Assembly: GCA_035605035.1 (NCBI GenBank)
Contig: DATNHI010000168.1
Coordinates: forward strand, 1-37,833
Length of the DNA: 37,833 nt
Direction of reading: 5' to 3'
Source: Verrucomicrobiia bacterium
Lineage (GTDB): Bacteria > Verrucomicrobiota > Verrucomicrobiia > Limisphaerales > UBA11358
The stretch's first letter is position 1, and each line of letters starts with the position of its first letter. Below, one piece after another: positions 13,186-32,112 of this stretch. Under the pieces are notes generated by a model. It was not told where the DNA came from. It saw only the letters and a program-made list of their open reading frames with translations, and did not search any database. Position numbers and translations under genes: made by a program.

Positions 13186-13187
13186 CA

Positions 13188-14108: not shown

Positions 14109-14113
14109 GCCGC

Positions 14114-14467: not shown

Positions 14468-14514
14468 GGCGACTTGAGCGAGTAGAAATCGTTACCAGCA
14501 ATATTCCCCAAAAA

Positions 14515-14539
14515 GGTGTCAGTCCCGGCTATTGGAATA
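14515..14539 (+). repeat. REP-like 25-mer, copy 3
   Basis: GGTGTCAGTCCCGGCTATTGGAATA. The first 20 nt are identical to the reverse complement of copy 2. Confidence 0.9.
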
Positions 14540-14777
14540 TTCGGTTGCACTTGGTTATGTTGAACCAACGGTGGTTATCTAACCTCTAACACGGATAGTG
14601 TCAACACCACTTATTCACAAGCGGGTTACAATTATAAAACAGAGACTTTTCTTCGGATTGGGTGCGTCGCGGGGAATTACCCGGCTGATATCGGAAGCGT
14701 TACGAAACGAACCGGAACGCCGGTCGCCTCATCCCTGAAGAAAGTGGTTACGGGTGCGGGCACACATCAATGATGTG

Positions 14778-15543: not shown

Positions 15544-15583
15544 GGGACTGAAATTTGTAGTTGTTATCGGTTTGGACTATACT

Positions 15584-15599
15584 TGGCCCCGCTCTTGCA
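15584..15599 (+). promoter_or_regulatory. sigma54-type promoter candidate for the kinase/activator operon
   Basis: TGGCCC-cgctc-TTGCA, with GG at 15585-86 and GC at 15597-98 (exact GG-N10-GC spacing). It lies ~90 nt upstream of the kinase ATG. Confidence 0.5.
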
Positions 15600-15608
15600 A
15601 AACGGGAT

Positions 15609-15626
15609 GAGCGGTTGTTGTGCCAG
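15609..15626 (-). promoter_or_regulatory. sigma54-type promoter candidate for the hypothetical + receiver operon
   Basis: The minus strand reads CTGGCAC-aacaa-CCGCT. The -24 box is perfect (complement of 15620-15625) and GC is at the correct -12 position (complement of 15611-12). It lies ~65 nt upstream of ATG 15543. Confidence 0.45.
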
Positions 15627-15687
15627 CAGGGGCGTGAGGCGGTTTTCCTGCATAAACCGATGTTTTTAAGCAGGCGGCCGCACGCGA

Positions 15688-17103: not shown

Positions 17104-18502
17104 AGATGATGCCAGCACGGCTTCCTCCTTGAAAAAGGTCTTGTGCGCCGAGGGTTATCAAGTGGAAACCGCCGGCCGCGGTGACGCCGGTTTGGAACTG
17201 GCCCGTCAAAACGAGTACAGTGTCGTCATCTCGGACCTGCGGCTGCCCGGTTTGGGCGGGCTGGAGCTGGTGGCCCAACTCCATACCGCCAAGCCGAAGC
17301 AGCCGATCATCCTGATCACGGCGCATGGCACGACCGAGACGGCCATCGAAGCCACCAAGCTGGGGGCCTGCGATTATCTGCTCAAACCGTTTGAAGCGGA
17401 TGAACTGCTTGATTTGGTCGCATCGGCGGTCGCCAGCAGCCGGCTCATGTCCGAACCGGTGGAAATGGGCGAGGCCCGCATGGACCAATCGGCCATCATC
17501 GGCAAAAGCCGGGCGATGCAGGCAATCTACAAGGAAATCGGACGGGTCGCCGCCACGCCCGCCACGGTCCTGATTCGCGGCGCGACCGGGACCGGCAAGG
17601 AACTGATTGCGCGCGCGATTTACCAGCACAGCCTGCGCGCGGACAAACCGTTCATCGCCGTCAATTGCGCCGCCATCCCGGATGCGTTGCTGGAAAGCGA
17701 ATTATTCGGCCACGAACGCGGCGCGTTCACCGGCGCGCAGGCGCGGCGCGTTGGCCGTTTCGAGCAGGCACACGGCGGAACCATTTTTCTGGATGAGATT
17801 GGTGATTTAAACGCGAACACCCAGGGCAAACTGTTGCGTGTGCTTCAGGAACGCTGCATCCAGCGGCTCGGCAGCGAGGTCAACGTCCCCGTGGATGTCA
17901 GGGTGCTGGCCGCCACCCATCGCGAACTGGAAACTGCCATCAAAGAAAAGGAATTTCGTGAGGACCTGTTCTATCGCCTGAGTGTCGTCACCATCGCGCT
18001 GCCGCCGTTGAGCGAGCGTACGGAAGACATTCCGGAACTGGCGAAATACTTTATCCATCGTTATGGAAAGGAGCTTGGCCTCGAGTCTCCCTCCGTGCAA
18101 CCCGAAGCCATTTCGTTGCTGCAAAACCAGCCGTGGCCGGGCAATGTGCGCGAACTGGAAAACGTCATCCGCCAGACGTTGTTGGCGGCGCGGCCATTTG
18201 GCATCAGCCTGGAACACGTGCAGCAGGTGCTGGCCAAAATCCGGAAACCTGTGGCCGCCTCCCAACAGACCCACGCCGCCTACATCACCGAACTGCTCAG
18301 CCGCGCGCAAAGCGGCGACACCCACGATGCTTACTCGCGCATGATCGCGGATCTCGAACCGGAATTATTCAAGCAGGCCATTCAGTTGGCGCAAGGCAAT
18401 CAATCCAAGGCGGCCCGCTGGCTGGGCATCGGCCGGATGCGGTTGCGGGAAAAGTTGGTCCAGTTCGGTTTGGCCGTCGGCCGGGAAGAACAAAACAAAT
18501 AG
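17078..18502 (+). CDS. sigma54-dependent response regulator (NtrC-family bacterial enhancer-binding protein)
   Basis: ATG at 17078-17080 (MNPKILLIEDD) overlaps the kinase 3' end by 26 nt. It has a REC domain (VISDLRLPGLGG). The AAA+ domain has Walker A GATGTGKE, the GAFTGA loop (ERGAFTGA) and Walker B IFLDEIGD. The C-terminal HTH is NQSKAARWLGIGRMRL. Confidence 0.95.
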   Translation: MNPKILLIEDDASTASSLKKVLCAEGYQVETAGRGDAGLELARQNEYSVVISDLRLPGLGGLELVAQLHTAKPKQPIILITAHGTTETAIEATKLGACDYLLKPFEADELLDLVASAVASSRLMSEPVEMGEARMDQSAIIGKSRAMQAIYKEIGRVAATPATVLIRGATGTGKELIARAIYQHSLRADKPFIAVNCAAIPDALLESELFGHERGAFTGAQARRVGRFEQAHGGTIFLDEIGDLNANTQGKLLRVLQERCIQRLGSEVNVPVDVRVLAATHRELETAIKEKEFREDLFYRLSVVTIALPPLSERTEDIPELAKYFIHRYGKELGLESPSVQPEAISLLQNQPWPGNVRELENVIRQTLLAARPFGISLEHVQQVLAKIRKPVAASQQTHAAYITELLSRAQSGDTHDAYSRMIADLEPELFKQAIQLAQGNQSKAARWLGIGRMRLREKLVQFGLAVGREEQNK

Positions 18503-18552
18503 TTTCACCTCGAGTCATTGTGGCCCGGTCGAATCCACCTCTGCTGCCAAAT

Positions 18553-18569
18553 GTGCCAGCCGCCGGCAC
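18553..18569. promoter_or_regulatory. candidate enhancer (UAS) palindrome
   Basis: GTGCC-N7-GGCAC is a perfect inverted repeat centred ~62 nt upstream of the GG of the 18622 promoter box. Confidence 0.3.
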
Positions 18570-18621
18570 GCCGAAGTTCAAATTCCGTAGATAATTCGTG
18601 GTTTTGTCCGGTTTTCGCAGG

Positions 18622-18637
18622 GGGCATGGAATCTGCA
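18622..18637 (+). promoter_or_regulatory. sigma54-type promoter candidate for the triple-repeat secreted protein
   Basis: GGGCAT-ggaat-CTGCA, with GG at 18623-24 and GC at 18635-36 (GG-N10-GC). It lies ~140 nt upstream of ATG 18775 and directly downstream of the activator gene. Confidence 0.5.
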
Positions 18638-18774
18638 AATTATGCACACAGCCAGTCGAGTAGCTGGCCTGCGCAATCAAGCGCCTGTTGGAATTTAACC
18701 CCGTTCAGGCGCGGCGCTGGCACCGTACAAGACTGATCCGGCAAGTAAAACGCTTGCTGAACGAAAGGAATCAA

Positions 18775-19593
18775 ATGAAAACGTCAGTCATGCGGATGGC
18801 AGTAGTGGCGGGCATGGCGTTCAACCTGATTTGCGCCAGTCCCACCAAGGGCGATGAATCGGCACCGGTTCAAAAAGACAAGATTTTCAAGGGCACTGTG
18901 ACTGCGGTTGACCAGAAGGAAAAGACGGTCTCGGCCAGGGACTTCTGGGGCACCAAAACCTTCAATGTCGCCGATAATTGCAAAGTGTCACTGGAAGACC
19001 AGCCGGCAGCCTCACTGGGGGAATTGCGTCCTGGCCAAAAGGTGGAGGTCGGCTATGAAAACGCACATGGTGTGCTGGTGGCAAACCGGGTCGCCCAGCA
19101 CAACCTGGTTTTTACCGGCTACATCAGCGCGATTAACCCCGCCAAACGAACGCTGACCATCAAGCATGGCTCGTTCAGCCGCGACTTCGCCGTCCCCGAA
19201 AACTGCGTGGTGGTCATCAGGGACAACAACACAAAAACCCTGGATGACCTGAAGGTCGGGCACACGGTCAATGTGGTTTATGAATCGGCGAATGGTTCCC
19301 CGCTGGCGCGGAGCATCGAGCAGAAAAGCCCCACGTTCGTGGGAACCATCCAGGCCATTGATGCCGAAACGCGAACGGTGAAGGCCAAGGACTTGCTTGC
19401 GGAGAAAACGTTCCACCTCGCTGACGGATGCCAGATTGTTGTTGGCGGCAAACCGGGCGGGAGCCTGAGTGATCTGCGCATTGGCGCCCGCTTTGCCTTC
19501 ACTTACGAAGACACGGATGGCGTGCTGGTGGTCAATCGGATTGGCTATGATGCGGCCTCCGCCAGCATGGAGAGCGCGCAGGCCGTGAAATGA
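18775..19593 (+). CDS. secreted protein made of three ~75-aa tandem repeats (DUF5666-like by eye)
   Basis: ATG at 18775 is preceded by AAAGGAA. The signal peptide is MKTSVMRMAVVAGMAFNLICA. The three repeats share F.G.i.a.d...rT...k......F.v...C.v........l.dL..G..v...YE...G........ Confidence 0.75.
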   Translation: MKTSVMRMAVVAGMAFNLICASPTKGDESAPVQKDKIFKGTVTAVDQKEKTVSARDFWGTKTFNVADNCKVSLEDQPAASLGELRPGQKVEVGYENAHGVLVANRVAQHNLVFTGYISAINPAKRTLTIKHGSFSRDFAVPENCVVVIRDNNTKTLDDLKVGHTVNVVYESANGSPLARSIEQKSPTFVGTIQAIDAETRTVKAKDLLAEKTFHLADGCQIVVGGKPGGSLSDLRIGARFAFTYEDTDGVLVVNRIGYDAASASMESAQAVK

Positions 19594-19667: not shown

Positions 19668-20336
19668 CTATGGCGGCGGCAGCACGTGGCCGGGAATCGA
19701 GCAGGTTGGCGGCAAGCCCACGGCATTAATCGTGTAAGTGCCGCCACCAGGACACACCGGGAAAGTCCCGCCTTTTAAATACGGCAGCAAATCCAGCGTG
19801 GTTGGAACGGATACATCGGTTTTGTTGTTCTCCAGCGCCCACTGCTGCTTGGCCGCGTCAATCTGGCGGAGGTTGTTGATACAGGTGTTGCGTTGAGCGG
19901 CTTCGGTTTGGGCCTGTTGTTGCGCTGCCGCCGCGGCGGCCCGTTGGGCTTGTTGGGCCGCGACTGCGTCCGCCTGCCAGGCCTGCAATGCATCCTGCTG
20001 CTCTTGCGTGACGAGATGTGCGGCCTTCAATTGCTGGGCCAACTGTTGGTTCGTTTGGGTCAACTGCTGACACGCTTCGGTCAACTCGCGGACCTGATTG
20101 CGCAGGCGAAGCAGGTCCTGATGTTCGCTGCGGAGGCGGGCGATTTCCACGGTTTGCCCCTCGACGTTGGAGGTTTTGCTCTGCTCCAATTCAGCGCGCA
20201 ATTGCTCAACCTGTTGTTTGGCGTCACGCGCGTCGGCCTGGGCCGCGCTTTTCTGCTGGTTGGCCGAAAAGAGGAGGAGTTCGCTGACTACCAGCGCGAC
20301 GATGCACAACCAGAGAACCCAGCGTTTCAGTGTCAT
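19668..20336 (-). CDS. TM-anchored coiled-coil protein with Cys-containing pilin-head-like C-terminal domain
   Basis: The track ORF starts at a TTG (20375). The ATG at 20334-20336 gives MTLKRWVLWLCIVALVVSELLLF (TM segment). About 130 aa of Q/A/E-rich coiled coil follow, then CINNLRQIDAAKQQWALENNK...LPYLKGGTFPVCPGGGTYTINAVGLPPTCSIPGH. Confidence 0.7.
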   Translation of the reverse strand: MTLKRWVLWLCIVALVVSELLLFSANQQKSAAQADARDAKQQVEQLRAELEQSKTSNVEGQTVEIARLRSEHQDLLRLRNQVRELTEACQQLTQTNQQLAQQLKAAHLVTQEQQDALQAWQADAVAAQQAQRAAAAAAQQQAQTEAAQRNTCINNLRQIDAAKQQWALENNKTDVSVPTTLDLLPYLKGGTFPVCPGGGTYTINAVGLPPTCSIPGHVLPPP

Positions 20337-20434
20337 GGTCAGGCTTCTTTTCGCCCTTTCGGCGGTCTCCGTCAAACAAGAAATTGCGCAAAGATCCGGA
20401 TGGGCGTTTCCCTGCGCTGTCAGCTCCCCGACTT

Positions 20435-22738
20435 TTAACCCGCGACGGTCAGCTCACGATGCGACTGCGTCTTCAACTGTTGGAGACGACCCCGCAGCGC
20501 GAACGTAAGCGCTTTGACTGTGATCTCCGGAGTGAGGAACGGTTTGCCAATCAGATCGTCGCCGCCGTTGCGGTTCATGCGGGCGCGCGCATCGAAATCG
20601 CTCCGGCCGGTCACAAACACCACGGGCGTGGCGCGGTTGAGAGCGGTATTGCGAATCCTCGAGCAGACCTCGAATCCGTCCATGCCGGGCATTACCACGT
20701 CCAGAAATATCACGTCGAACGGTTTTTCGGTCACCAGCGCCACCGCCGCTTCCCCGTTCTCCGCGCTCTCCGGCTTTTTAAAAGCCGTCTGCAGAGCGCC
20801 GACGAGCGCCCGGCGCGCCACGAGATCATCGTCCACCACCAACAGGTGAATCGGCGGATTGACGGCCAGGTCCGCTTTCAGTCCCGGCACACACAAGTCG
20901 TTGAGCAAATCCACCGCAGAGGCGAGAGTGGCCAGCACGGACGGCGTGGCATGTTCGGAATGCTGCAGCATTTTTCTGAGCAGTCCTTCCAGCGCGGCGC
21001 TCAGGTGATAAGCCGGATGCGCCACTGCGGGGCCGGACCTGGGAACCAATGAATTAATGCGAAGGAAACCATCCACCAGCAGGGTCTGCCGCGTCTCCTT
21101 GTTCGAGACTTGAAGAACCGTCTGGCAGAGTTCCCACAACGGTTCCAGGTGTCTGGACGCGCGAATCAAGAAGGCACTGATAATCTCGTCGGTCTCCGCC
21201 GGCAGCGCCGCCGGCGGCAGCCGCCGGGCGATGGTGGAATCCGGGACGGGACATGGACCATCCGTGACCGCCACGAGGGAATCCGCCGTTTCCGGGTCCG
21301 TGCCAGGTTCCGGGAGAGGTTTCTGAGCGTGTCCCCGGAGACGGCGGTGCAACGCGAGGGTGAGCGCCTTGACTGTCACTTCAAAAGCAAGAAACGGTTT
21401 TCCCATCAGATCGTTGCCGCCGCTGAGAGTTGACTTGCAGCGCGCTTCAAAGTCGCTCTGGACCGTGACAAAGACAACCGGAGTGGTGCGATTGAGAACG
21501 GTGTCACGTATTTTGGTGCAAAGTTCAAAGCCATCCATGCCCGGCATTTGCACGTCGAGGAAAATGACGTCGTAAGCCTGCCTGGAGGCCTGGGCCAAAG
21601 CCGTTTCGCTATCCTCTGCCAGGTCCGGCTGGCTGAACGCCTTTCGGAGCGAGTGTGACAGGGCCTGGCGGCTTATCATGTCGTCATCAACGACGAGAAG
21701 CTTGAAGGGGTGATCCGACAGCAGCGCCGGCTGCAATCCCGGCATACATAAGTCATTGAGCAAATCCAAGCCGCCGGCAACGGTTCGCAGCGTGGAAGGC
21801 GTAATACTTTTCGGCGTGCCGGCGAGTTGTTTCAGAAGTCCTTCCAGTGCTGATGCCACCTGCCATACGGGAAGCGCCTCCGGAAAACCGGCTTCGCCTT
21901 TCAGCACGCCCATCTCAAAATATAAATACGTCAGCATTCGTCGCCGGGCCATATCACTCGACTCCCGGCTGATGTCCTGCAACAGCTTCCGCTGCGCGCC
22001 GAGGCGCTTTTGCATTTCCGCGTAAAATTCACTGACCGGATCGGTCTGTCTGGACAGATCGGTAACCGCCGAGCGTGACGGACCGACCCGGAACGTTTCA
22101 ACAAACTTGCCAAAGGCTTCTTCCTCCGCGCGAATTTTTGCCAAAAGTTCCGTTTTGGCGGCCGGGGCAAGCCCCCACGAATTGAACCGCTGATCCACGT
22201 CGCCGGGCCGCTGCGGGCCAAACCTTCGGATAACCAGAAATCCGGTTAAAACGACAGCGGCACCAAACAAAAGGACCTCTAAGACGATTCCGGATGAGGC
22301 GCGTGGAGGCGGTGGCGGTGGCGCTTCCTTTTTCGGACCATTGATCAAAATTGCGGAGGTGGACCGCGGAATATTTCTGCCAACCGCGCCAGGGATGGGC
22401 ACACGATTCCGGTAGTGCTCCTGGCGTTCTTTGGCAATGCTATGGTCCATCTCCCATCGAATGGACCCCGGTTCCGGTGGCGGCGTCTCGAATTCGCTGG
22501 TATTCGTATCCGCGGTTCCGGGCAATGGCAGGCACCAAAGTCCCGCCGTGAAGAGAATCAGAGACGCATTAATCCACGCAGCCCGGGCCACACCGGGAAC
22601 CGATCGCCGGGCAAATTCCCTCGCCGCCATTCTGAACTGGTTTAGCAGCCCAAATGGAATCATCCGGACAGCCGCTTGCGCGCGCAAGCCGGCCGCCAAT
22701 CTGTCGAATGCCGATTTCGGTCCCATTTTCCCGATCAT
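20435..22738 (-). CDS. membrane protein with two tandem (Hpt-like + receiver) modules
   Basis: 767 aa with two hydrophobic segments in the first 170 aa. There are two REC domains (LLVVDDDMISRQAL...VIFLDVQMPGMDGFE...GKPF and LLVVDDDLVARRAL...VIFLDVVMPGMDGFE...GKPF). Each is preceded by a four-helix Hpt-like segment (...ALEGLLKQL...LDLLNDLCMPG and ...ALEGLLRKML...VDLLNDLCVPG). Confidence 0.85.
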   Translation of the reverse strand: MIGKMGPKSAFDRLAAGLRAQAAVRMIPFGLLNQFRMAAREFARRSVPGVARAAWINASLILFTAGLWCLPLPGTADTNTSEFETPPPEPGSIRWEMDHSIAKERQEHYRNRVPIPGAVGRNIPRSTSAILINGPKKEAPPPPPPRASSGIVLEVLLFGAAVVLTGFLVIRRFGPQRPGDVDQRFNSWGLAPAAKTELLAKIRAEEEAFGKFVETFRVGPSRSAVTDLSRQTDPVSEFYAEMQKRLGAQRKLLQDISRESSDMARRRMLTYLYFEMGVLKGEAGFPEALPVWQVASALEGLLKQLAGTPKSITPSTLRTVAGGLDLLNDLCMPGLQPALLSDHPFKLLVVDDDMISRQALSHSLRKAFSQPDLAEDSETALAQASRQAYDVIFLDVQMPGMDGFELCTKIRDTVLNRTTPVVFVTVQSDFEARCKSTLSGGNDLMGKPFLAFEVTVKALTLALHRRLRGHAQKPLPEPGTDPETADSLVAVTDGPCPVPDSTIARRLPPAALPAETDEIISAFLIRASRHLEPLWELCQTVLQVSNKETRQTLLVDGFLRINSLVPRSGPAVAHPAYHLSAALEGLLRKMLQHSEHATPSVLATLASAVDLLNDLCVPGLKADLAVNPPIHLLVVDDDLVARRALVGALQTAFKKPESAENGEAAVALVTEKPFDVIFLDVVMPGMDGFEVCSRIRNTALNRATPVVFVTGRSDFDARARMNRNGGDDLIGKPFLTPEITVKALTFALRGRLQQLKTQSHRELTVAG

Positions 22739-22785
22739 GCATGAAACTCAAGCGGACCGGCGGACATTTCCGCCGGCCATGGAAA

Positions 22786-24531
22786 TTATGGCGCCGTATT
22801 TTGGCCCGGAGGCACGGCGGCCCACTCGCCCCGAATCACCTGCAGCAAACTCGGTGTTTTCGGCGGAAGTTTGAGCGGGTTGTCAAAATTGGCGTCGTAA
22901 GCCCAGTTGCGGACCGGCGGGTTATAAACGTTGGCCATTCCCCAAACATTGGTGGCATAGAGGCTGGGGAACATCTTGATCATCGAACCATTATAGGTGA
23001 ATGGCACCGCTGTCCAGGTTTCCAGAAAACGCGGGAAATTTTCCATGCCGCCGCTGTAATGTCCCAACGTGGTATCAACCGCGCCGGTCAGAATGGCGGC
23101 GTTGACGGTGGTGGCTGACGCTTTTCGCGAGGTCAGCGCGCTGGTGCTGTTCGCGTCCGTCCAACTATCCGAGAGAACTGTGATGGCGTCGGCCACCAGC
23201 GAAGCCGGCCGGGTGGTGGAGGTGTTGGTCGTACCCAGATTCGCGGAGTTGAATTGGTTATAGTCTTTCCAAACGTAGAGCGGACGCCCGGTCGCTACCG
23301 TCAGCCCGTTCGGCGGCAGATTGGTTCCGTTGTACACCCGAACCGCTCTCAAACTGGTGGCCGGCAACGTGCGGCTATCCAGTACATAGACAGAACTAAG
23401 AATCAGATTCGACCCGATGGCAGAGTAACGCAGACTGGAATTGGTCTGGCTCCAGGCCGCGAGATTCCCGATGTTGATGTCAATGGGCATGACGGTTTTC
23501 CCCTCACGCGCATCCGAAAAGCTGTTTGCGGTTGAGACAAACGTCGCCAGCTCATTGGTCGGGATGGGGGTCGCAAAGTTATTAAAATGCCCGCTGGTGG
23601 CGCTGATTCCGGCAGCCGAAGCCACCACAACCATGTCGCATTGATTGTAATACCGCAGCCGGCCGATGGGTGAGTTGGGGTCTTCCCCGAAGGGTGGCGG
23701 CTCGATGATTTCCCGGACCGCTTGCGGCGTGTTGGTGCTTCCGATGGGCAGGGTCAAGGACGAAACGGGAAAAACCGGTTGATTGGTTTGCGCATAGACC
23801 ACGCTGCCGACCGGCGCGCCGCGGGTATCGAGCGGGTCGCGTTGAAACAGGACGCTGATAACCGCAGTGACACTGGATCCAAAAGTCAGGGAGCTGTCCG
23901 GTTCGACGTAGAGTTCCCCGTTGGAATGCACACGTCCGGTAACGGTGAAAGGCTGACCGCAACTGATTTCCAGTTCACCCGAGGAATACATGGCAAACTG
24001 GAAGATGGGGATGCTGGCCAACTGCAATTGCTGCAGGACCCCCCCGCTGACGCTCTGCGGGCTGGCCGTATCCTGCGCGTGTGAAGCGATCGCGTAGATC
24101 GAAGCATATCCTTTCAAGCCGGCGTAAGTCGAGTCCGCCACAATGTAGCTGGTTCCAGGCGAGCGCTGCACATAAGTTTGGCCACTATTCCCGTTACCGT
24201 CATCAAATTCCCAAGTGCTCCAGTATGAGGAGTCCGACGATGTGGGCACTGTGTTCTGGCGATAAGAGCTCAGGTTGTTGCTGACCAGGCTTTCGCCACC
24301 GTACAGGTAATCACTGTTCATTCGACTCACCACTTTTTCCGTGGCTGCCTCCGCGGCCGCGACCGAACGGTTATATTGGATGGAACGGTACGTCAATTGG
24401 GTGTTGCTGGCCGACCATGACATCGCCGCCGCCAGCAAGGCCAGGGCAATCGCGCTCAGGATCAGGGTCAGCATCAGGGCGCTTCCATTCTGATCCCGTT
24501 TGCGAGTGTGAAAGGTGGTTTTCATGTTCAT
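22786..24531 (-). CDS. large PilX/GspK-like minor pseudopilin (no Glu+5)
   Basis: 581 aa. The N-terminus QNGSALMLTLILSAIALALLAAAMSWSASN is PilX_N/GspK-like. The start overlaps the stop of the upstream pseudopilin gene (ATGA at 24528-24531). Confidence 0.7.
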   Translation of the reverse strand: MNMKTTFHTRKRDQNGSALMLTLILSAIALALLAAAMSWSASNTQLTYRSIQYNRSVAAAEAATEKVVSRMNSDYLYGGESLVSNNLSSYRQNTVPTSSDSSYWSTWEFDDGNGNSGQTYVQRSPGTSYIVADSTYAGLKGYASIYAIASHAQDTASPQSVSGGVLQQLQLASIPIFQFAMYSSGELEISCGQPFTVTGRVHSNGELYVEPDSSLTFGSSVTAVISVLFQRDPLDTRGAPVGSVVYAQTNQPVFPVSSLTLPIGSTNTPQAVREIIEPPPFGEDPNSPIGRLRYYNQCDMVVVASAAGISATSGHFNNFATPIPTNELATFVSTANSFSDAREGKTVMPIDINIGNLAAWSQTNSSLRYSAIGSNLILSSVYVLDSRTLPATSLRAVRVYNGTNLPPNGLTVATGRPLYVWKDYNQFNSANLGTTNTSTTRPASLVADAITVLSDSWTDANSTSALTSRKASATTVNAAILTGAVDTTLGHYSGGMENFPRFLETWTAVPFTYNGSMIKMFPSLYATNVWGMANVYNPPVRNWAYDANFDNPLKLPPKTPSLLQVIRGEWAAVPPGQNTAP

Positions 24532-25136
24532 TCCAGTGCGCGCCGGGTCATGGAGGTTTCCAGCTTGTAATAATCCGCGCCTTGCATGAAACGCGCCGGT
24601 TGATAGAATTCAAGGGTGAGGTGGATCACCCGATTGTTTTGGTTGTTGGTCAACACATTCCCCGAAAAGTCCTGCGCGGTGAACGCGATCGTGTTGGTGA
24701 CCGAATCGGCCAGGATTTCAGCGGAGCCCGGCTGGTCGGTGGTTCGCCGGAAGCTCTGGTCCGATAAATTGACAAAATAGATGATGTAGCTGGCAGTATT
24801 GGTCGTAGGATAAACGAGCAGAGCGGTGCCCTGCTGCGTCTCCCCATTCAGCAGCCCGTCAAAAACACCATTCGTAATATTGCCAACCGACACGCTGTTA
24901 CAGGAGTGGATTTCAGTTGTCATTTTTTCGACCGTTTGGCGGGACCACGTGGTGATGTTGAGCTTGGTTGTATTGACTTGAAACATTCTCAAGCCAAACA
25001 GATTCGCGGCAATGATGCCGGCGAGCATCAGCAGAAACACCGCCATCGCAATGAGGATTTCCGGCAGGGTGAAACCTTTGTCCAGCACCGGCCTCCGGCC
25101 GCGATCTGAATTTGAAAATGGAACGTGAAGCTTCAT
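24528..25136 (-). CDS. prepilin-type N-terminal cleavage/methylation protein, GspJ/PilW-like minor pseudopilin
   Basis: 202 aa. DKG/FTLPEILIAMAVFLLMLAGII is a class-III signal with Glu at +5. It has ATGA overlaps with both neighbours. Confidence 0.8.
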   Translation of the reverse strand: MKLHVPFSNSDRGRRPVLDKGFTLPEILIAMAVFLLMLAGIIAANLFGLRMFQVNTTKLNITTWSRQTVEKMTTEIHSCNSVSVGNITNGVFDGLLNGETQQGTALLVYPTTNTASYIIYFVNLSDQSFRRTTDQPGSAEILADSVTNTIAFTAQDFSGNVLTNNQNNRVIHLTLEFYQPARFMQGADYYKLETSMTRRALE

Positions 25137-25600
25137 TGGTCGGGGGCGCGAATGGTTTCAATCGTGTTGGTGATCAATTGGGTCCCCATGAAATTCCAGA
25201 TGCAATCCACCCGAATTCTGCGGATCGGCGGGGCGAGTGAAATCTGGGAAATGGTCGTCTGAATCGTGGCCGACGTGCCTCCGGAACCGGATCCGGGCAT
25301 ATCCAGGGAAACGATCTTGTTCGGAAAATTCGTGGCCACCAACTGGTCCACAACCGGCCAGACGGAGGTATCCCATCGGGCGCTGTGCACCTCCTCGATG
25401 CGTTCCATCGCCCGGGCGCTCGCCGCCTGAACCAGTCCGCCCTTTACCGCAGCCGTCGTGCAGTAGATATATCCCTCAACGACTCCCCCCACGGTCAGCC
25501 CGGTGATGGCCAAGGCGACAACCACTTCCACCAGCGTCATTCCCGCCCGCCCGCGCGGTGCGAATCGAACGACCTTTTGATTTGAACACATGGTTTTCAT
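25133..25600 (-). CDS. prepilin-type N-terminal cleavage/methylation protein, GspI/PilV-like minor pseudopilin
   Basis: 155 aa. GRAG/MTLVEVVVALAITGLTVGGVV is a class-III signal with Glu at +5. Confidence 0.8.
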   Translation of the reverse strand: MKTMCSNQKVVRFAPRGRAGMTLVEVVVALAITGLTVGGVVEGYIYCTTAAVKGGLVQAASARAMERIEEVHSARWDTSVWPVVDQLVATNFPNKIVSLDMPGSGSGGTSATIQTTISQISLAPPIRRIRVDCIWNFMGTQLITNTIETIRAPDQ

Positions 25601-25625
25601 CGAATTCCGGCCTGCCTGCCAATTG

Positions 25626-25641
25626 TGGCATTGGCTTTGCT
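25626..25641 (+). promoter_or_regulatory. orphan sigma54-type promoter-like box
   Basis: TGGCAT-tggct-TTGCT, with GG at 25627-28 and GC at 25639-40. This is the best match to TGGCAC-N5-TTGCW in the window, yet no plus-strand CDS follows it. Confidence 0.35.
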
Positions 25642-25817
25642 TTGCAAAGAATTCCCTATAAATTCCTGCTTTTCAGGGCAAATTCAGCATGTTTCGGTCC
25701 AATTAAAGGGGTAAAAACCGTGGTTGAATTGCACTGGCAACCCTATGGCAACGCCCACAAACGGGAAGGTTAAAGCAGTACCATTGACAGCCGGGAAGCG
25801 CTGGCCTGCCAGCCGTA

Positions 25818-25912: not shown

Positions 25913-25989
25913 TGGTACGCGAGGAGAGGGTCGAACTCTCAACCTTCGGCTCCGGAGGCCGACGCTCTATCCAATTGAGCTACTCGCGC
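25913..25989 (-). tRNA. tRNA-Arg (anticodon CCG), CCA encoded
   Basis: Manual cloverleaf: GCGCGAG-TA-GCTC-AATTGGATA-GAGC-G-TCGGC-CTCCGGA-GCCGA-AGGTT-GAGAG-TTCGACC-CTCTC-CTCGCGT-A-CCA. All four stems pair (G1-U72 is a wobble). T33 and purine 37 flank the CCG anticodon, and the T-loop is TTCGA. Confidence 0.9.
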
Positions 25990-28083: not shown

Positions 28084-31000
28084 CTACTGTCCCAACCAAA
28101 CGGCCCGGTAAAAGAAAGTATTCCCATTGGTGGCGGGTTGCGGCAGGAGGAGGTTAAAGCCATTGGTCAGGATGGTGTTGGTGCTTACGGGCAACCATGA
28201 CCCGCTGTTCAGCGAAGTCCGGCGCTCCAGTCGATAAACCGTGCCGGTCGTGCCGGTGATGCCCAGCCCAACACTATAGCCCGCCACCAGCATCGGATTG
28301 GTCACCGTATAAAACCCTGCATAGACCGTAATTTGGCCAGGCTGCACTGTCACCGTCTGATTGGTCGGCAGATTCCAACCGTTTATCGGCTTGAACTGGA
28401 TCACCACCGCGTTGGTCGAAAACACCGCCCGCACGTAGTTGGTCGCGCTCGAATAGGTGGCATCCCCCTGCAACCGCCAGCCCGCACCGGCCTGCACCGC
28501 CGCCGCTGGCCCCAACTGCCACTGGACATATCCCGGATTGCTGGCGCTGATGGCTTGATTGGGGATAATGGTGATCACCCCGCCACCCGTGTTGTTCGTG
28601 CCGGTGTCACCCAACGTCGCCGCATTCGTGATCAGGTTCACTACCTCGCTGTCGATCGCCCGCACGGCTGACGCATACGGCACAGCGCCATTGAACAACG
28701 TCCCCAAATACACCCCTGCTGGATAGTAATAGCCGTTGAACTGTACATACAGCGGCCCGCCGCTGTTGCCCGGATAACTGAGAAGCCACGCCGCTATGTA
28801 AACTTGCTGATTGTTCACCGGGTCCGCAGCCTGACTCAAAGGATACGGCTGCGGCCCGGTCTGATACATCACGCCCGGCACGATGCTGGCGTCGCCAAAC
28901 AACGAGCCATCCACCGGGTAGCCCACCAGCATCTTCAGGCTCGTGCTCGTCAGCCAGGAGTTGGGCGACGCATCCGAGGGCAAGTAGCCGCCATAGCCAC
29001 CTCCCGCCACCGGCGACAGGAAATACAGCGCCGCCACGTCCAGGTTCCGTGACTGGGGACTGGACTGGTCCGGACTCAGGCCACTCAACAAGTCATTGGT
29101 CCGCTGGGCGGCATAGCCGCTCAACACATACCAGCCCCGCGCTGGCAACGGCTCCGGGGCAAACACACCTTCCTCCTCCTGAAAATACCAATAGACCTGG
29201 CTCACGTAGGACAACGTCTCGTCGTTGAAGACCAGATGCGCCGCCGTCAACACCACGTTGGTCTGCACGGCCACCCCGCTGCCGTAGCCCACATCCGATT
29301 GCAACTGGCCGTTGAACCCGAAGGGATAATCGGTCAGGTCACTAAGGTAATTGGCAGGTACCGGCACAGGCAGCAGAACCCCGCCCGGTGGCGAGGCGGC
29401 AAGCAGGTAACTGGCCGAAATCACTCGGGCCAAACCGGCATACACCTGCACCGCCTGGCTGGCAGGCTTCGAGTAGTTGGCCACCGGCTCGAACTCGATG
29501 AAATAGATGTCCGGCAGCAAGTTGGTCGCCGTGGAGCCTGGCGCCCGCCAGGTCGTCTCTCCCAGGAACCGCCAGCCGGCACCAGCGGGCGAGTTGGGCT
29601 GAATGTTGACCGTCAGCGTACCGTCGTTCGTGTCCCCGGCAACGAGCGTAGGGTAATATTGGTTGGTTACGAACGTGGTAACACCGCCCGCGACTGCTGC
29701 CATAAAGTTGGTCGAGATGGTCAGGTAACCGGGCAAATTGCGAAACTCGACGGGGTAATTGCCGGCGACCAGATTGCTCGCCAAGTCTCCGCTGTTGCGC
29801 CAGGCGATTTCCCAGGGAAAGCGCCATTGCCCGTCGGCCTCAGGCGGCAGCAAGGTCACGACAAGCTGCCCATTCATGGGCGGCTGGGTGTAAGGCACCG
29901 GATCGGTTGGCGTGTATGCCGTGAACACCCCTTTGCGAATCGTGTTGTTGTAAGTATCCGCCACGTAGAGAACGCCTGCGTCGTCCACCGCTAAACCGTA
30001 GGGCAAGTCAAACAACGCGGCGCTGCCCGCCCCGTCGGCGCTGCCATAGGTCCCGGCCACGCCACCAATCGTGCTGACGACCCAGTTGGTGCCGACGGGA
30101 GTTATCTTCCGAATCGTGTTGTTGTACGTATCCGCCACATAGAGATTGCCCGCGCTGTCCACCGCGATACCAAAAGGTTTGTCAAACTGAGCGTTCGTTC
30201 CCGTGCCGTCGGCGCTGCCTTGGACCATGGCCTGCCCGGCAATAGTGCTCACTACCCAGTTGGTTCCAGCGGGCGTTATCTTCCGGATCGTGTCGTTGGT
30301 AAAATCGGCCACGTAGAGATTGGTCGCGCTGTCCACCACGATCCCACCCGGCTTGTTAAAGTGCGCATTGGTTCCCGTGCCGTCAGTGAAGCCATCAGTC
30401 CCAGCCAGCCCGGCAATGGTGCGCACCACCCAGTTGGTGCCCACCAATGTCATCTTCCGAATCGTGTCGTTGTAGGTATCCGCCACGTAGAGATTGGTTG
30501 CGCTGTCCACGGCGATGCCGCCTGGATAATTAAACCGCGCCACGCTGTTGGTTCCGTCCGCGCTGCCATTGATTCCGGCCCTACCGGCGATGGTACTCAC
30601 TATCCCCGCCGGCGTGATCTGCCGAATGGTGTGGTTGTATGTGTCCGCCACATAAACATTGCCGGCGCTGTCAACCGCCACGCCGCCTGGCCCGTTAAAC
30701 AACGCGTAACTGCCCGGCCCATCATTGGTGCCCGAAACCTCGGCCAACCCGGCCATCGTGCTCACCAAACCTGCCGAGGTGATCTGCCGAATGGTGCAAT
30801 TCAGTTCATCCGCCACGTAGAGATTGCCGTCGCCATCCACCGCGATACCTTCAGGACTCCAAAATCGTGCGGCGCCGCCTGTGCCATCAGCGCTGCCGAC
30901 ACTTCCGCCGCCAGCCAGGGTGCTCACCACCCCGGCTGAGGTGATCTTCCGAATTGCATCGTTGAACGTATCCGCCACATAGATATGGCCTTCCGGGCCT

Positions 31001-32097: not shown

Positions 32098-32112
32098 GGG
32101 AAAAAGGTTGAA

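What the first reader, a model, noticed from the sequence alone, without database searches (positions are those of the whole stretch)
19668..25600. Stand-alone minor-pseudopilin trio operonically linked to a dual Hpt-like/receiver membrane protein and a coiled-coil pilin-head protein
Five minus-strand genes lie with 4-nt overlaps or short gaps. They are a GspI/PilV-like protein (155 aa, Glu+5), a GspJ/PilW-like protein (202 aa, Glu+5), a GspK/PilX-like protein (581 aa, no Glu+5), a 767-aa membrane protein with two (Hpt-like + REC) modules, and a TM/coiled-coil protein. The I-J-K order and the missing Glu+5 in the largest member match the tip complex of type II secretion pseudopili. However, the window contains no major pseudopilin, secretin, ATPase, platform protein or prepilin peptidase. 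Instead the trio is followed by phosphorelay-type domains. The small-small-large prepilin arrangement is reminiscent of the TIGRFAMs 'Verru_Chthon cassette' families as I remember them (not verified). A pseudopilus tip set wired to a receiver protein would be a surface-sensing or regulated-secretion module that I have not seen described.
Basis: partly seen in the sequence, partly recalled or inferred. Interest (0 to 1): 0.65.

Follow-up and report, generated by a model that had tools for sequence, protein, structure and literature searches.

The report
Pilus-tip genes plus phosphorelay protein
A four-gene operon conserved in peat and soil Verrucomicrobia joins three type IV pilus tip ("minor pilin") genes to a membrane-anchored signalling protein with two receiver domains. 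This points to an undescribed way of controlling or sensing through pili; the fifth gene in the finding is only a neighbour.

Summary
All five minus-strand ORFs are present as described. Only four of them form a conserved unit: p1 (155 aa, G|MTLVE), p2 (202 aa, G|FTLPE), p3 (581 aa, no Glu+5) and p4 (767 aa).

- **Conservation:** The four genes are colinear in about 60 species-level Limisphaerales/Verrucomicrobiia MAGs. Their flanks are unrelated from genome to genome.
- **Promoter:** A conserved sigma-54-type promoter lies about 100 nt upstream of p1.
- **Fifth gene:** The coiled-coil gene belongs to the neighbouring syntenic block. In a close relative its ortholog lies about 50-60 kb from the cassette.
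- **Type IV pilus, not type II secretion:** Distant p3 relatives sit in FimU-PilV-PilW-PilX order next to pilMNOPQ. The p3 model matches only ComZ, the Thermus beta-solenoid tip pilin.
- **p4 architecture:** p4 has two TM helices followed by two (Hpt-derived four-helix bundle + intact REC) modules. The Hpt histidine is replaced by Gly277 and Asn562, although some relatives keep it.
- **Rejected:** No Verru_Chthon cassette model matches.

Best reading: this is a sigma-54-driven pilus priming/tip set co-transcribed with a kinase-less, membrane-bound phosphorelay protein that gates or reports on that tip complex. The role of p4 is inferred, not shown. The cassette is a new variant of a known kind and is of moderate interest.

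The parts
25686..25702 (-). sigma-54-type -24/-12 promoter element TTGGACCGAAACATGCT (GG-N10-GC spacing), 102 nt upstream of the p1 ATG
   Evidence: Sequence read. The same element lies at -98 to -103 in 21 close loci. GG-N9-TGC occurs between -135 and -60 in 54 of 68 loci, against 5 of 68 equal-sized coding control windows. Several distant loci carry near-consensus TGGCAC-N5-xTGCT.
25133..25600 (-). p1: small prepilin-type minor pilin (155 aa; leader ...RGRAG|MTLVE, Glu+5). PilV/GspI-like by size and position only.
   Evidence: Pfam N_methyl 26.2 bits and TIGR02532. The motif is conserved in 48 of 53 family members. The family profile matches only the N-terminal helix of type IV pilins in the PDB.
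24528..25136 (-). p2: medium prepilin-type minor pilin (202 aa; ...LDKG|FTLPE, Glu+5). PilW/GspJ-like by size and position only.
   Evidence: Pfam N_methyl and TIGR02532 26.9 bits. The motif is present in 56 of 64 family members. hhalign against the Gemmatimonadota PilW-like protein aligns only the N-terminal 68 residues.
22786..24531 (-). p3: large PilX/ComZ-class tip pilin (581 aa; QNG|SALML, no Glu+5). Long alpha-1 helix, pilin beta-sheet and a beta-solenoid-like insertion.
   Evidence: AF2 model with pLDDT 78.5 and pTM 0.77. The only significant PDB fold match is ComZ 6qvi, E 3e-6. Sub-threshold match to the HpsA C-terminal region, 50.4 bits. Homologs at 31-38% identity are the PilX_N proteins in T4aP clusters.
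20435..22738 (-). p4: inner-membrane protein (767 aa): cytoplasmic N-terminus, TM1 (~54-72), conserved ~75-aa periplasmic loop, TM2 (~150-173), then two (degenerate Hpt + REC) modules.
   Evidence: Pfam Response_reg 150 bits with 2 stretches. AF2 secondary structure. Hydropathy. The N-terminus is conserved in homologs. It directly follows p3 in 58 loci and in 24 of 26 loci found from the p4 side.
21725..22057 (-). p4 module 1 four-helix bundle (aa 228-338), Hpt-derived, with Gly277 at the phospho-His position
   Evidence: Aligns without gaps to module 2. The best PDB hits of the profile are CheA P1 (Hpt) 1tqg/2ld6, E 0.03-0.04, over nearly the full length. Weak Pfam Hpt hits. Residue position.
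21359..21703 (-). p4 REC1 (aa 346-460): D351/D352, D395, T425 and K447, all invariant in 40 homologs
20867..21217 (-). p4 module 2 four-helix bundle (aa 508-624), Hpt-derived, with Asn562 at the phospho-His position. His574 is invariant but lies off the canonical position.
   Evidence: Module 2 retains His at this position in 50 of 210 family members examined.
20519..20845 (-). p4 REC2 (aa 632-740): D636/D637, D680, T710 and K732, all invariant
25913..25989 (-). tRNA-Arg(CCG): upstream boundary of the cassette in this genome (not conserved in relatives)
   Evidence: ARAGORN, Rfam. Relatives have other upstream neighbours.
19668..20375 (-). p5: neighbouring gene, NOT part of the conserved cassette. 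TM helix + Gln-rich coiled coil + ~70-aa C-terminal domain with invariant Cys165, Cys208, Cys225 and His230. Probable start at Met14 (20336).
   Evidence: No p5 homolog was adjacent to the cassette in any of the 82 loci tested. Orthologs at 80-82% identity lie beside DUF5666-NtrC-HK-transketolase, the same block as window 7046-19593. Family alignment.

Best explanation
Window 20435-25702 (minus strand) is a four-gene, sigma-54-dependent operon typical of Limisphaerales/Verrucomicrobiia.

**The three pilins.** Its first three genes encode a type IV pilus (T4aP-type) minor-pilin set. Two are prepilins that carry Glu+5: p1 is PilV-like and p2 is PilW-like. The third, p3, is a large capping pilin of the PilX/ComZ class. 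It lacks Glu+5 and carries a beta-solenoid-like insertion, so it can only sit at the filament tip. After cleavage by a prepilin peptidase encoded elsewhere, the three would assemble in the inner membrane into the priming complex. That complex nucleates a pilus on a machine encoded elsewhere and ends up as the pilus tip, where it could act as an adhesin or receptor.

**The fourth gene.** p4 is an inner-membrane protein with a short conserved periplasmic loop and two cytoplasmic modules. Each module is an Hpt-derived four-helix bundle followed by a catalytically intact receiver domain. There is no kinase domain and no output domain.

**Inferred mechanism.** p4 is the dedicated signalling partner of this tip set. 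Its TM and periplasmic part contacts the membrane-embedded minor pilins or the assembly platform. The phosphorylation state of its receivers is set by an unlinked histidine kinase or CheA-type kinase. That state either gates use of this priming complex (pilus initiation or motor activity) or reports its occupancy or loss to the cytoplasm.

**Shown:** gene content, motifs, domain architecture, conservation of the four-gene order, the conserved promoter motif, the T4P context of distant homologs, and transcription of p3 and p4 in peat.

**Inferred:** assembly into a tip complex, sigma-54 dependence, phosphorylation of p4, and any p4-pilin or p4-machine contact.
For: **Conserved unit**
- p1-p2-p3-p4 are colinear in about 60 species-level genomes with unrelated flanks.
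- Clustering of all flank ORFs finds only these four families recurrent.
- From the p4 side the trio precedes p4 in 2 of 2 long contigs. In metagenome contigs p3 lies directly upstream of p4 in 24 of 26.
- The 4-nt overlaps are also conserved.

**Pilin class**
- N_methyl and TIGR02532 hits.
- Glu+5 is kept in p1 and p2 and absent from p3 across the families.

**T4P rather than T2SS**
- L070 (Verrucomicrobia, p3 36% identity) has the trio followed by pilM, three small genes and a secretin.
- L078 and L076 (Gemmatimonadota) have a GspH/FimU-like protein, a PilV-like protein, PilW (PF16074) and PilX_N (PF14341, the p3 homolog) beside pilM-N-O-P-Q with an AMIN-domain secretin.

**Tip pilin**
- AF2 model with pTM 0.77. 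Its only significant PDB match is ComZ, E 3e-6.
- ComZ is argued to fit only at the pilus tip (PMC6561018).
- Cyanobacterial PilX/HpsA share the beta-solenoid architecture (bioRxiv 10.64898/2026.02.12.705559). p3 and all its relatives match the HpsA C-terminal region below threshold.

**p4**
- Two intact REC domains.
- The bundles are Hpt-derived: best PDB hits are CheA P1, there are weak Pfam Hpt hits, and His occupies the canonical position in 68 of 474 family domain instances.
- The family comprises 436 clusters at 50% identity, all with 1-3 (bundle + REC) modules and no other domain.

**Promoter:**

**Expression:** exact metatranscriptome contigs lie in p3 and p4.

**Precedents for signalling proteins coupled to minor pilins or T4P**
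- FimS-AlgR (PMC5979040).
- The tandem-REC regulator DrdR, which binds PilB and PilT (PMC13507683).
- FimL, which has His-less Hpt-like domains (PMC3019171).
Against: - The globular parts of p1 and p2 match no PilV/PilW or GspI/GspJ model. Their assignment rests on size and order.
- No FimU/GspH-type adaptor pilin is present in the cassette.
- No T4P machine gene (pilM/Q homolog or PilB/T-type Walker motif) lies within 10 kb of any REC-linked cassette. I could not check whether these genomes encode a machine at all.
- The Foldseek match to ComZ has a low TM-score (0.27-0.29, rmsd 15 A).
- The window's promoter element differs from the strict TGGCAC-N5-TTGCW consensus at 3 positions, and a generic scan is not enriched.
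- An enhancer-binding protein is adjacent in only two genomes: the window and L062.
- No experiment links p4 to pili. Co-transcription is not resolved by the sparse RNA contigs.
- At the divergent fringe of the p4 family (L115, L116) a single-module relative sits next to a non-pilin secreted protein.
Confidence: 0.55

Rival explanations
1. One reading: the trio is the GspI-GspJ-GspK tip of a type II secretion pseudopilus, and the module regulates secretion.
For: - The I-J-K-like size order, with Glu+5 missing in the largest member.
- Weak N-terminal similarity of p1 and p2 to the GspI model (E 0.02-0.03).
- Weak N-terminal similarity of p3 relatives to GspK (best 25.9 bits, E 6.6e-6).
- T2SS and T4P minor pilins are homologous (established knowledge).
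Against: - All Gsp hits cover only the N-terminal helix and fall far below the cut-offs: 14-15 bits against 44 for GspI, and at most 26 against 130 for GspK.
- Distant homologs lie beside pilMNOPQ, not gsp genes.
- p3 is 581 aa with a solenoid insertion and matches ComZ. From my own knowledge, GspK is about 300-330 aa with an alpha-helical insertion.
- No GspC/D/E/F/G/L/M lies within 10 kb in any of about 60 loci.
Confidence: 0.1
2. The pilin trio is a T4P priming set, but p4 is merely co-expressed with it. Under this view p4 is a general membrane-bound phosphorelay or phosphate-sink protein acting on another process, such as exopolysaccharide export, cell-envelope function or gene regulation through partners. 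It would not act on the pilus itself.
For: - p4 has no domain known to bind pilins or T4P motors.
- Divergent single-module relatives occur without pilin genes (L115/L116).
- The HpsA-type PilX subfamily in cyanobacteria is tied to polysaccharide secretion.
Against: - The p3-p4 adjacency is maintained across about 60 species while every other neighbour changes.
- p3 and p4 are separated by only about 45-60 nt, with no recognisable terminator.
- The TM-loop-TM part of p4 is conserved together with the family, which suggests a membrane or periplasmic partner.
Confidence: 0.2
3. The cassette specifies a competence (DNA-uptake) pilus tip, with p3 acting as a ComZ-like DNA receptor. p4 would switch the shared machine to this filament type.
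For: - The only structural match is ComZ, which binds DNA with PilA2 at the tip (PMC6561018).
- Cyanobacteria use separate Com and EPS priming sets on one machine.
Against: - The sequence signal of p3 is to HpsA, the EPS/motility-type PilX, not to a competence family.
- The ComZ lysines implicated in DNA binding were not examined.
- No com genes lie nearby.
Confidence: 0.12
4. The five genes, including the coiled-coil protein, form one functional module as proposed.
For: - Same strand, a gap of 59-98 nt and no clear terminator between p4 and p5.
- The junction is real in independent assemblies of three runs.
Against: - p5 was not adjacent to the cassette in any of the 82 loci tested.
- Its orthologs (80-82% identity) are syntenic with the DUF5666-NtrC-HK-transketolase block, which is also its other neighbour in the window.
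- In the 4.64-Mb contig the cassette locus spans 479-501 kb and the p5 locus 553-574 kb.
- In several relatives a tRNA-Val gene follows p4 directly.
Confidence: 0.03

Closest known systems
Pseudomonas aeruginosa fimS-algR / fimU-pilVWXY1E (minor-pilin operon controlled by a two-component system; PMC5979040). That it lies next to fimS-algR and apart from the machinery genes is from my own knowledge.
   Same: - A minor-pilin priming set encoded away from the machinery genes.
- That set is genetically coupled to two-component signalling.
- The minor pilins feed back on the signalling system.
   Different: - Here the signalling protein is inside the operon, downstream of the pilins.
- It has no kinase and no DNA-binding output.
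- It is membrane-anchored and carries two Hpt-derived bundle + REC modules.
- There is no PilY1 and no FimU or PilE.
- The promoter is of the sigma-54 type.
ComZ of Thermus thermophilus (PDB 6qvi; PMC6561018), and cyanobacterial PilX/HpsA beta-solenoid tip pilins (bioRxiv 10.64898/2026.02.12.705559)
   Same: - A large pilin with a beta-solenoid inserted in the pilin fold.
- No Glu+5, so a tip position is inferred.
- Encoded after smaller minor pilins.
- ComZ is the only significant fold match, and there is partial HpsA sequence similarity.
   Different: - About 10% sequence identity to ComZ and a low global TM-score (0.27-0.29).
- The HpsA model scores 50 bits against a cut-off of 400.
- A different phylum.
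- Neither known system has a linked receiver protein.
DrdR of Xanthomonas campestris (tandem-REC response regulator without output domain that binds PilB/PilT; PMC13507683), and PilG/PilH of the Pil-Chp system
   Same: Output-less receiver proteins that regulate type IV pili by protein-protein contact. DrdR also has a tandem REC arrangement.
   Different: - DrdR is soluble and orphan, and its first REC is a pseudo-receiver.
- p4 is membrane-anchored and both of its RECs keep all catalytic residues.
- Each p4 REC is preceded by an Hpt-derived bundle.
- The p4 gene is welded to a minor-pilin operon.
- No interaction data exist for p4.
FimL of P. aeruginosa (ChpA-like protein with two Hpt-like domains that have Gln instead of His; PMC3019171)
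   Same: Hpt-like four-helix bundles that have lost the phospho-accepting His, used in a T4P-associated signalling context.
   Different: - FimL is soluble and, as described, has no REC modules of this kind.
- There is no detectable sequence relationship to p4 beyond the Hpt fold class.
T2SS pseudopilus tip GspI-GspJ-GspK
   Same: A homologous small-medium-large architecture with a capping subunit that lacks Glu+5.
   Different: - No Gsp model reaches its cut-off.
- The genomic context of homologs is T4aP.
- p3 is much larger, with a different insertion.

Membership tests
T4aP core minor pilins (PilV/PilW/PilX priming complex) | Class III (prepilin) signal with Gly-1 and Glu+5 in the inner subunits; capping subunit without Glu+5 | tested here: met
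   p1 has G|MTLVE, p2 has G|FTLPE and p3 has G|SALML. Pfam and TIGR02532 hits. Family-wide conservation.
T4aP core minor pilins (PilV/PilW/PilX priming complex) | Homologs encoded within or beside T4aP machinery clusters in V-W-X order | tested here: met
   L070 has the trio followed by pilM...secretin. L078 has a GspH-like protein, a PilV-like protein, PilW and PilX_N beside pilMNOPQ. L075 and L076 are similar. This holds only for distant homologs (31-38% identity). The window's own clade is never within 10 kb of machinery genes.
T4aP core minor pilins (PilV/PilW/PilX priming complex) | Match to curated PilV/PilW/PilX family models (TIGR02523, PF16074, PF14341) | tested here: not met
   No such hit for the window proteins at E<=1. 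PF16074 and PF14341 hit only the Gemmatimonadota homologs.
T4aP core minor pilins (PilV/PilW/PilX priming complex) | Adaptor pilin (FimU/GspH type) in the set | tested here: not met
   Only p1 and p2 carry a prepilin motif in the whole window. There is no fourth pilin in the cassette in relatives.
T4aP core minor pilins (PilV/PilW/PilX priming complex) | Same genome encodes PilB/C/D/M/N/O/P/Q and a major pilin | not testable with these tools
   Only +/-10 kb around each locus could be read.
ComZ / PilX beta-solenoid tip pilins (incl. HpsA-like PilX) | Pilin fold (long alpha-1 helix plus beta-sheet) interrupted by a large beta-solenoid domain | tested here: met
   AF2 gives helix 15-85, a beta-sheet and then runs of short strands. 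Foldseek against the PDB finds only ComZ 6qvi (E 3e-6, probability 1.0, 567 aligned columns), though with TM 0.27-0.29.
ComZ / PilX beta-solenoid tip pilins (incl. HpsA-like PilX) | Match to the HpsA equivalog model NF038301 above its cut-off | tested here: not met
   50.4 bits against a cut-off of 400. Only the C-terminal ~65-90 residues of the model align.
T2SS tip complex GspI/GspJ/GspK | Match to the GspI (TIGR01707), GspJ and GspK (NF037980) models above their cut-offs | tested here: not met
   GspI scores 14.6 and 15.2 bits against 44.35, over the N-terminal 21-24 residues only. No GspJ hit. No GspK hit for p3; relatives reach at most 25.9 bits against 130.
T2SS tip complex GspI/GspJ/GspK | Encoded within a gsp operon (GspC-M, secretin GspD, ATPase GspE) | tested here: not met
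   No such genes in the window or within 10 kb in the related loci.
TIGRFAMs 'Verru_Chthon cassette' proteins A-D | Match to the cassette family HMMs | tested here: not met
   No Verru_Chthon model appears among the NCBIfam hits at E<=1 for p1-p5, or at E<=0.1 for ten distant relatives including verrucomicrobial ones. I did not verify independently that these models are in release 20.0.
Hpt (histidine phosphotransfer) domain, PF01627 | Four-helix bundle with Hpt-like sequence profile | tested here: inconclusive
   AF2 predicts four helices per module with pLDDT 80-90. The best PDB hits of the profile are CheA P1 at E 0.03-0.04 over 94 of 111 positions. Pfam Hpt matches 3 of 23 members, best E 0.0027, and P0409 scores 19.8 bits against 24.6. 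All of these are below the curated threshold.
Hpt (histidine phosphotransfer) domain, PF01627 | Phospho-accepting His in the HxxKG motif on helix B | tested here: not met
   The window has Gly277 (GVLKG) and Asn562 (NSLVP). His occupies this column in 68 of 474 domain instances of the wider family, so the window copies are degenerate Hpt domains.
Receiver (REC) domain, PF00072 | Pfam match plus the acidic pair, phospho-Asp, Thr/Ser and Lys | tested here: met
   150.3 bits with two stretches. D351/D352, D395, T425, K447 and D636/D637, D680, T710, K732 are invariant in 40 homologs.
Sigma-54 (RpoN) dependent promoter | -24 GG and -12 GC elements with fixed spacing, conserved upstream of the operon | tested here: met
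   TTGGACCGAAACATGCT at -102. Conserved in 54 of 68 loci against 5 of 68 controls.
Sigma-54 (RpoN) dependent promoter | Dependence on RpoN and an enhancer-binding protein | not testable with these tools
   An NtrC-type bEBP is encoded 1.9 kb from the p4 stop codon in the window and next to the cassette in L062, but not in other loci. No experimental data.

The most novel reading that the evidence does not exclude
p4 founds an undescribed class of type IV pilus regulators. It would be a kinase-less, inner-membrane 'Hpt-REC-Hpt-REC' phosphorelay protein. In some relatives module 2 keeps its histidine, which would permit an internal REC1 -> Hpt2 -> REC2 relay. The protein would dock through its TM and periplasmic part onto the minor-pilin priming complex. 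It would then either license pilus initiation in response to an unlinked kinase, or transmit tip-complex or surface-contact status into the cell. That would be a verrucomicrobial counterpart of, but unrelated to, PilY1/FimS-AlgR or Pil-Chp mechanosensing.
Probability: 0.3. Interest if true: 0.7.

Novelty: new variant of a known kind. Interest (0 to 1): 0.5.

Why it matters
Type IV pili of Verrucomicrobiota, which are abundant in peat, soil and gut, are almost unstudied. How pilus tip complexes talk to the cytoplasm is an open question even in model bacteria.

This cassette fuses, at the operon level and across about 60 species, a tip/priming set with a membrane-bound receiver protein of unusual architecture. 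It therefore offers a compact and genetically tractable candidate for direct coupling between pilus initiation, or tip status, and phosphorelay signalling.

The work also corrects three likely annotation errors: 'T2SS pseudopilins', 'CheY-like chemotaxis protein', and treating the coiled-coil gene as a cassette member. In addition, it shows that the ComZ/PilX beta-solenoid tip pilin class extends to Verrucomicrobiota, Gemmatimonadota and other phyla.

Tried and rejected
- **PDB sequence and profile searches.** p3 found nothing. For p1 and p2 only the N-terminal pilin helix matched. For p5 only generic coiled coils matched.
- **hhalign of p1 and p2 profiles against the Gemmatimonadota PilV/PilW-like proteins.** Only the N-terminal segments aligned. 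PilV/PilW identity is therefore positional.
- **Foldseek of the whole p4 model.** The results were swamped by REC hits such as PleD and CheY, so it said nothing about the helical bundles. I switched to a sub-domain profile.
- **Consensus sigma-70 promoter and terminator scan.** No promoter was found and the terminator-like hairpins were unconvincing.
- **Generic sigma-54 consensus scan of the window.** Not enriched: 31 hits against 25 expected. The promoter call rests on cross-species conservation instead.
- **Conserved 5' leader RNA structure.** RNAalifold found none (-0.33 kcal/mol, no covariation). Rfam found only the tRNA.
- **Co-transcription from public metatranscriptomes.** Only five short exact or near-exact contigs fall in p3 and p4. 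This shows expression but not operon structure.
- **Linkage to an enhancer-binding protein.** One lies within 10 kb only in L062.
- **Linkage to tRNA genes as an island marker.** tRNA-Val follows p4 in six relatives and tRNA-Arg precedes p1 here. There is no integrase and no compositional shift.
- **First attempt at a diverse p4 profile for the metagenome scan.** A six-sequence alignment worked.
- **Literature search for 'Verru_Chthon cassette'.** It returned nothing.

Full report
**1. What is in the sequence**

| Gene | Coordinates | Length |
|---|---|---|
| p1 | 25133-25600 | 155 aa |
| p2 | 24528-25136 | 202 aa |
| p3 | 22786-24531 | 581 aa |
| p4 | 20435-22738 | 767 aa |
| p5 | 19668-20375 | 235 aa |

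- p1/p2 and p2/p3 overlap by 4 nt. p3-p4 are 47 nt apart and p4-p5 are 59 nt apart.
- p1 (...RGRAG|MTLVE) and p2 (...LDKG|FTLPE) match the prepilin N-methylation models (Pfam PF07963, TIGR02532).
- p3 begins with a pilin-like hydrophobic helix after QNG|SALML and has Leu, not Glu, at +5.
- p4 contains two PF00072 receiver domains (150 bits).
- p5 has no family hit apart from coiled-coil noise.
- A tRNA-Arg(CCG) gene lies 312 nt upstream of p1. A convergent DUF5666 gene lies downstream of p5.
- The rest of the window encodes central-metabolism genes, a histidine kinase with an NtrC-type sigma-54 activator, an IS200-like transposase and two giant NHL-repeat proteins. There is no secretin, traffic ATPase, platform protein or prepilin peptidase.
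- No other ORF in the window carries a prepilin motif.
- The source is a peat metagenome. The homologs are labelled Limisphaerales or Verrucomicrobiia.

**2. Which genes belong together**

A scan of one genome per species returned 80 loci that encode a p3 relative.

- tblastn with the window proteins shows p1-p2-p3-p4 colinear, with the same overlaps, in essentially every locus where p3 is at least 58% identical. That is about 60 species-level MAGs.
- p5 and the window's other flanking genes were not adjacent in any of the 82 loci tested.
- I called ORFs in all 82 loci and clustered them. Only four families recur: p3 (71 loci), p2 (63), p4 (58) and p1 (53). The next most common flanking family is found in 9 loci.
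- The gene after p3 is nearly always the p4 ortholog, 0-60 nt downstream.
- The converse also holds. Two p4 homologs on long contigs are preceded by the trio.
- A scan of metagenome contigs seeded with a motif of the p4 helical domain found 30 loci. In 24 of the 26 that extend upstream, p3 directly precedes p4.
- The two exceptions are L115 and L116 (36% identity). They are single-module relatives next to a 670-aa secreted protein that is not a pilin.

p5 is different.

- Its orthologs (80-82% identity) lie beside DUF5666, NtrC, HK, REC, transketolase, DA1-like, DUF179, PMI and AccA. This is exactly the block that flanks p5 on its other side in the window (compared).
- In the 4.64-Mb contig that holds both, the cassette locus spans 479-501 kb and the p5 locus 553-574 kb.
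- The p4/p5 junction in the window is genuine. Independent Logan contigs from three runs span it without differences. It is nevertheless a lineage-specific rearrangement.
- In six relatives a tRNA-Val gene follows p4 directly.

The functional unit therefore has four genes, not five.

**3. A conserved promoter**

I aligned the DNA upstream of p1 from loci whose further upstream sequence is unrelated. This exposes a block, TTGGACCGAAAYRTGCT, 98-103 nt before the ATG in 21 loci and in the window (25686-25702, minus strand).

- Its GG and GC dinucleotides have the spacing of sigma-54 -24/-12 promoters (consensus TGGCAC-N5-TTGCW; established knowledge).
- With a relaxed pattern (GG-N9-TGC at -135 to -60), 54 of 68 loci have such an element, against 5 of 68 equal-sized control windows in coding DNA.
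- Several distant loci carry near-perfect sites, for example TGGCACGGTAGCTGCT and TGGCACTTAAGATGCT.
- Sigma-54 dependence is classical for pilin genes (pilA with PilS-PilR; my own knowledge).
- The activator is not generally linked. A bEBP lies within 10 kb only in L062, and by coincidence of the rearrangement in the window (17075-18502).
- The ~85-nt leader is conserved in sequence but shows no supported RNA structure.

**4. What the trio is**

No curated PilV/W/X or GspI/J/K model reaches its cut-off. The Gsp hits are 14-15 bits over the N-terminal 20 residues. The evidence comes from relatives and from structure.

*Relatives.*
- In a verrucomicrobial MAG (L070, p3 36% identical) the p1-p2-p3 homologs are followed by a small secreted protein, PilM, three small genes and a secretin.
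- In Gemmatimonadota (L078, L076) the p3 homolog carries Pfam PilX_N. It is the last of four prepilins (GspH/FimU-like, PilV-like, PilW, PilX) and is divergent from pilM-N-O-P-Q with an AMIN-domain secretin.
- A deltaproteobacterial locus (L080) has the same series of four prepilins.

*Structure.*
- The AlphaFold model of p3 (53-sequence alignment, pLDDT 78.5, pTM 0.77) has a 70-residue N-terminal helix, a pilin-type sheet and then runs of short strands.
- Against the PDB it matches only ComZ of Thermus thermophilus (6qvi, E 3e-6, probability 1.0, 567 columns, TM 0.27-0.29).
- ComZ is a pilin with an inserted beta-solenoid that is argued to fit only at the pilus tip (PMC6561018).
- A 2026 preprint describes the same architecture in all cyanobacterial PilX proteins. 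It assigns HpsA to an expanded 'PilX-EPS' subfamily and proposes that the solenoid replaces PilY1 as the tip plug.
- p3 and all ten distant relatives tested match the C-terminal ~70 residues of the HpsA model below threshold.

*Conclusion.* I therefore read p3 as a PilX/ComZ-class capping pilin, and p1 and p2 as the PilV- and PilW-position subunits. The first assignment rests on homology and fold, the other two on order, size and Glu+5 only. The recalled Verru_Chthon cassette families do not match.

A minor-pilin operon separated from the machine genes is normal. [quoted passage not shown] That it lies next to fimS-algR is from my own knowledge.

**5. What p4 is**

*Topology.*
- The full 767-aa reading frame is supported by conservation of the N-terminus. 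The database gene call starts later (569 aa).
- Hydropathy and the AlphaFold model give a cytoplasmic N-terminus, TM1 (~54-72), a ~75-residue periplasmic loop, TM2 (~150-173) and a cytoplasmic part.
- The periplasmic loop has a conserved helix with the motif GSIQW...QE.YR.R.

*Domains.*
- The cytoplasmic part is a four-helix bundle (aa 228-338), REC1 (346-460), a ~45-residue low-confidence linker, a second bundle (508-624) and REC2 (632-740).
- The two bundles align to each other without a gap (about 30-37% identity). The two RECs are about 60% identical. The arrangement is therefore an internal duplication.
- Single-module orthologs (430-500 aa) follow p3 in eight loci, and triple-module relatives exist.
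- Both RECs keep the acidic pair, the phospho-Asp (D395, D680), Thr (T425, T710) and Lys (K447, K732). All are invariant in 40 homologs, so both are probably phosphorylatable.

*The bundles derive from Hpt domains.*
- A profile of both bundles finds CheA P1 domains (1tqg, 2ld6) as its best PDB hits, E 0.03-0.04 over 94 of 111 positions. The CheA His aligns to the 'G/N-x-L-K-G' column.
- Pfam Hpt gives weak hits.
- In the wider family the aligned column is His in 68 of 474 domain instances, mostly in module 2 (HSLTP/HALTP). The wider family comprises 436 clusters at 50% identity, found with aa 1-340.
- In the window's clade the residue is Gly277 in module 1 and Asn562 in module 2. Both bundles are therefore degenerate Hpt domains.
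- An invariant His574, twelve residues further on, is unexplained.

*No other domains.* No family member examined has a kinase, DNA-binding or enzymatic domain. Sources annotate these proteins as 'CheY-like chemotaxis protein' or 'PleD family response regulator'.

**6. How it most likely works**

*Shown.* A conserved operon with a sigma-54-type promoter encodes three minor pilins and p4. p3 and p4 are transcribed in peat: exact metatranscriptome contigs lie at 24236-24525, 23234-23425 and 22914-23105, and one contig with a single mismatch lies at 20883-21041.

*Inferred.*
- After processing by a prepilin peptidase, p1-p2-p3 form a priming complex capped by p3. This complex nucleates a pilus on a T4aP machine encoded elsewhere and becomes its tip. 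Its function there (adhesin, EPS- or DNA-binding) is open.
- p4 shares the inner membrane with the unassembled pilins. It contacts them or the platform through its TM and periplasmic part.
- Through the phosphorylation state of its receivers, p4 either licenses use of this tip set or signals its status.

*Precedents.*
- FimS-AlgR responds to the minor pilins and PilY1 (PMC5979040).
- The tandem-REC protein DrdR binds and stimulates PilB and PilT (PMC13507683).
- FimL uses His-less Hpt-like domains in the Chp/cAMP circuit (PMC3019171).

*Confidence.* In relatives that keep His in module 2, a REC1 -> Hpt2 -> REC2 relay within one polypeptide is conceivable. In the window's clade that route is broken. 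I put about 0.8 on the pilin part, 0.7 on sigma-54 dependence and about 0.4 on a direct pilus-related role of p4, which gives 0.55 overall.

**7. Limits**

- I could not establish whether the genomes carrying the cassette encode a T4P machine.
- Co-transcription is unresolved.
- The ComZ match has a low TM-score.
- The window's promoter element deviates from the strict consensus at three positions.

**8. Novelty and verdict**

Minor-pilin operons, ComZ/PilX solenoid tip pilins, sigma-54 pilin promoters and REC proteins that regulate T4P are all known. I found no description of two things:

- the p4 architecture (TM-loop-TM followed by one to three Hpt-derived bundle + REC modules, without kinase or output domain);
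- its obligatory operon fusion to a minor-pilin set across a whole order of Verrucomicrobiota.

I class the cassette as a new variant of a known kind, with interest 0.5. The five-gene, T2SS and Verru_Chthon elements of the original interpretation should be dropped.

Noticed in passing
window 15584-15599 (+), upstream of the HK gene 15688-17103 and the NtrC-type bEBP 17075-18502: A near-consensus sigma-54 element TGGCCCCGCTCTTGCA (1 mismatch) lies about 90 nt upstream of the histidine kinase / sigma-54 activator pair. This suggests autoregulation of the pair. The pair lies next to the cassette only because of a lineage-specific rearrangement (it is syntenic with p5 in L083 and L084).
   Followed up: partly
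window 19850-19889 (within the p5 C-terminal domain, 'CINNLRQIDAAKQQWALE'): About 35 nt of this stretch are matched by many different metatranscriptome contigs at 5-40x word depth, and those contigs then diverge on both sides. The motif is therefore shared by numerous well-expressed paralogs in peat. The p5 family has 2412 database hits and an invariant Cys-Cys-Cys-His pattern (C165, C208, C225, H230), and its function is unknown.
   Followed up: partly
window 13188-14147 (-): An IS200-like Y1 transposase ORF (319 aa, unusually long) sits next to the transketolase gene. The orthologous blocks of L083 and L084 have no such gene between the transketolase and the HK, so it is a probable insertion.
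   Followed up: no
L023 10001-13475 and L055 1224-4724: Two MAGs carry a tandem duplication of the p3 tip pilin (paralogs about 64% identical) between p2 and p4.
   Followed up: partly
L045 and L054 (same MAG, DASRFK01); also L055/L066/L081 and L010/L077: Some genomes hold two or three p3-type loci. In DASRFK01 both copies are followed by single-module p4 variants. In other genomes a REC-linked cassette coexists with a distant (37-40% identity) p3 paralog on short contigs.
   Followed up: partly
p4 residue His574 (window 21015-21017, minus strand): This histidine is invariant (VHPAYQ), lies 12 residues after the degenerate phospho-His position of module 2, and has no counterpart in module 1. 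It could be structural or an alternative acceptor.
   Followed up: no
L003, L012, L014, L016, L065, L088 (100-350 nt after p4); window 25913-25989: tRNA genes border the cassette in several genomes: tRNA-Val(TAC) follows p4 in six relatives, and tRNA-Arg(CCG) precedes p1 in the window. There is no integrase or GC shift, so these may be rearrangement hot spots rather than island integration sites.
   Followed up: partly
L085 10465-12576 and L087 10331-12219: In two distant members of the clade the cassette is followed by a pair of Band_7 (SPFH/HflK-HflC-like) membrane-scaffold genes.
   Followed up: no
L070 11796-12419, L071 11793-12440, L067 4376-5026: In the T4P-linked verrucomicrobial relatives, a ~210-aa signal-peptide protein with no family match overlaps the end of the p3 homolog. 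It occupies the position that p4 has in the Limisphaerales cassette.
   Followed up: partly
window 28084-36261 (-): Two adjacent giant (1337 and 1382 aa) NHL/beta-propeller repeat proteins with signal peptides lie upstream of the cassette region. They were not examined further.
   Followed up: no
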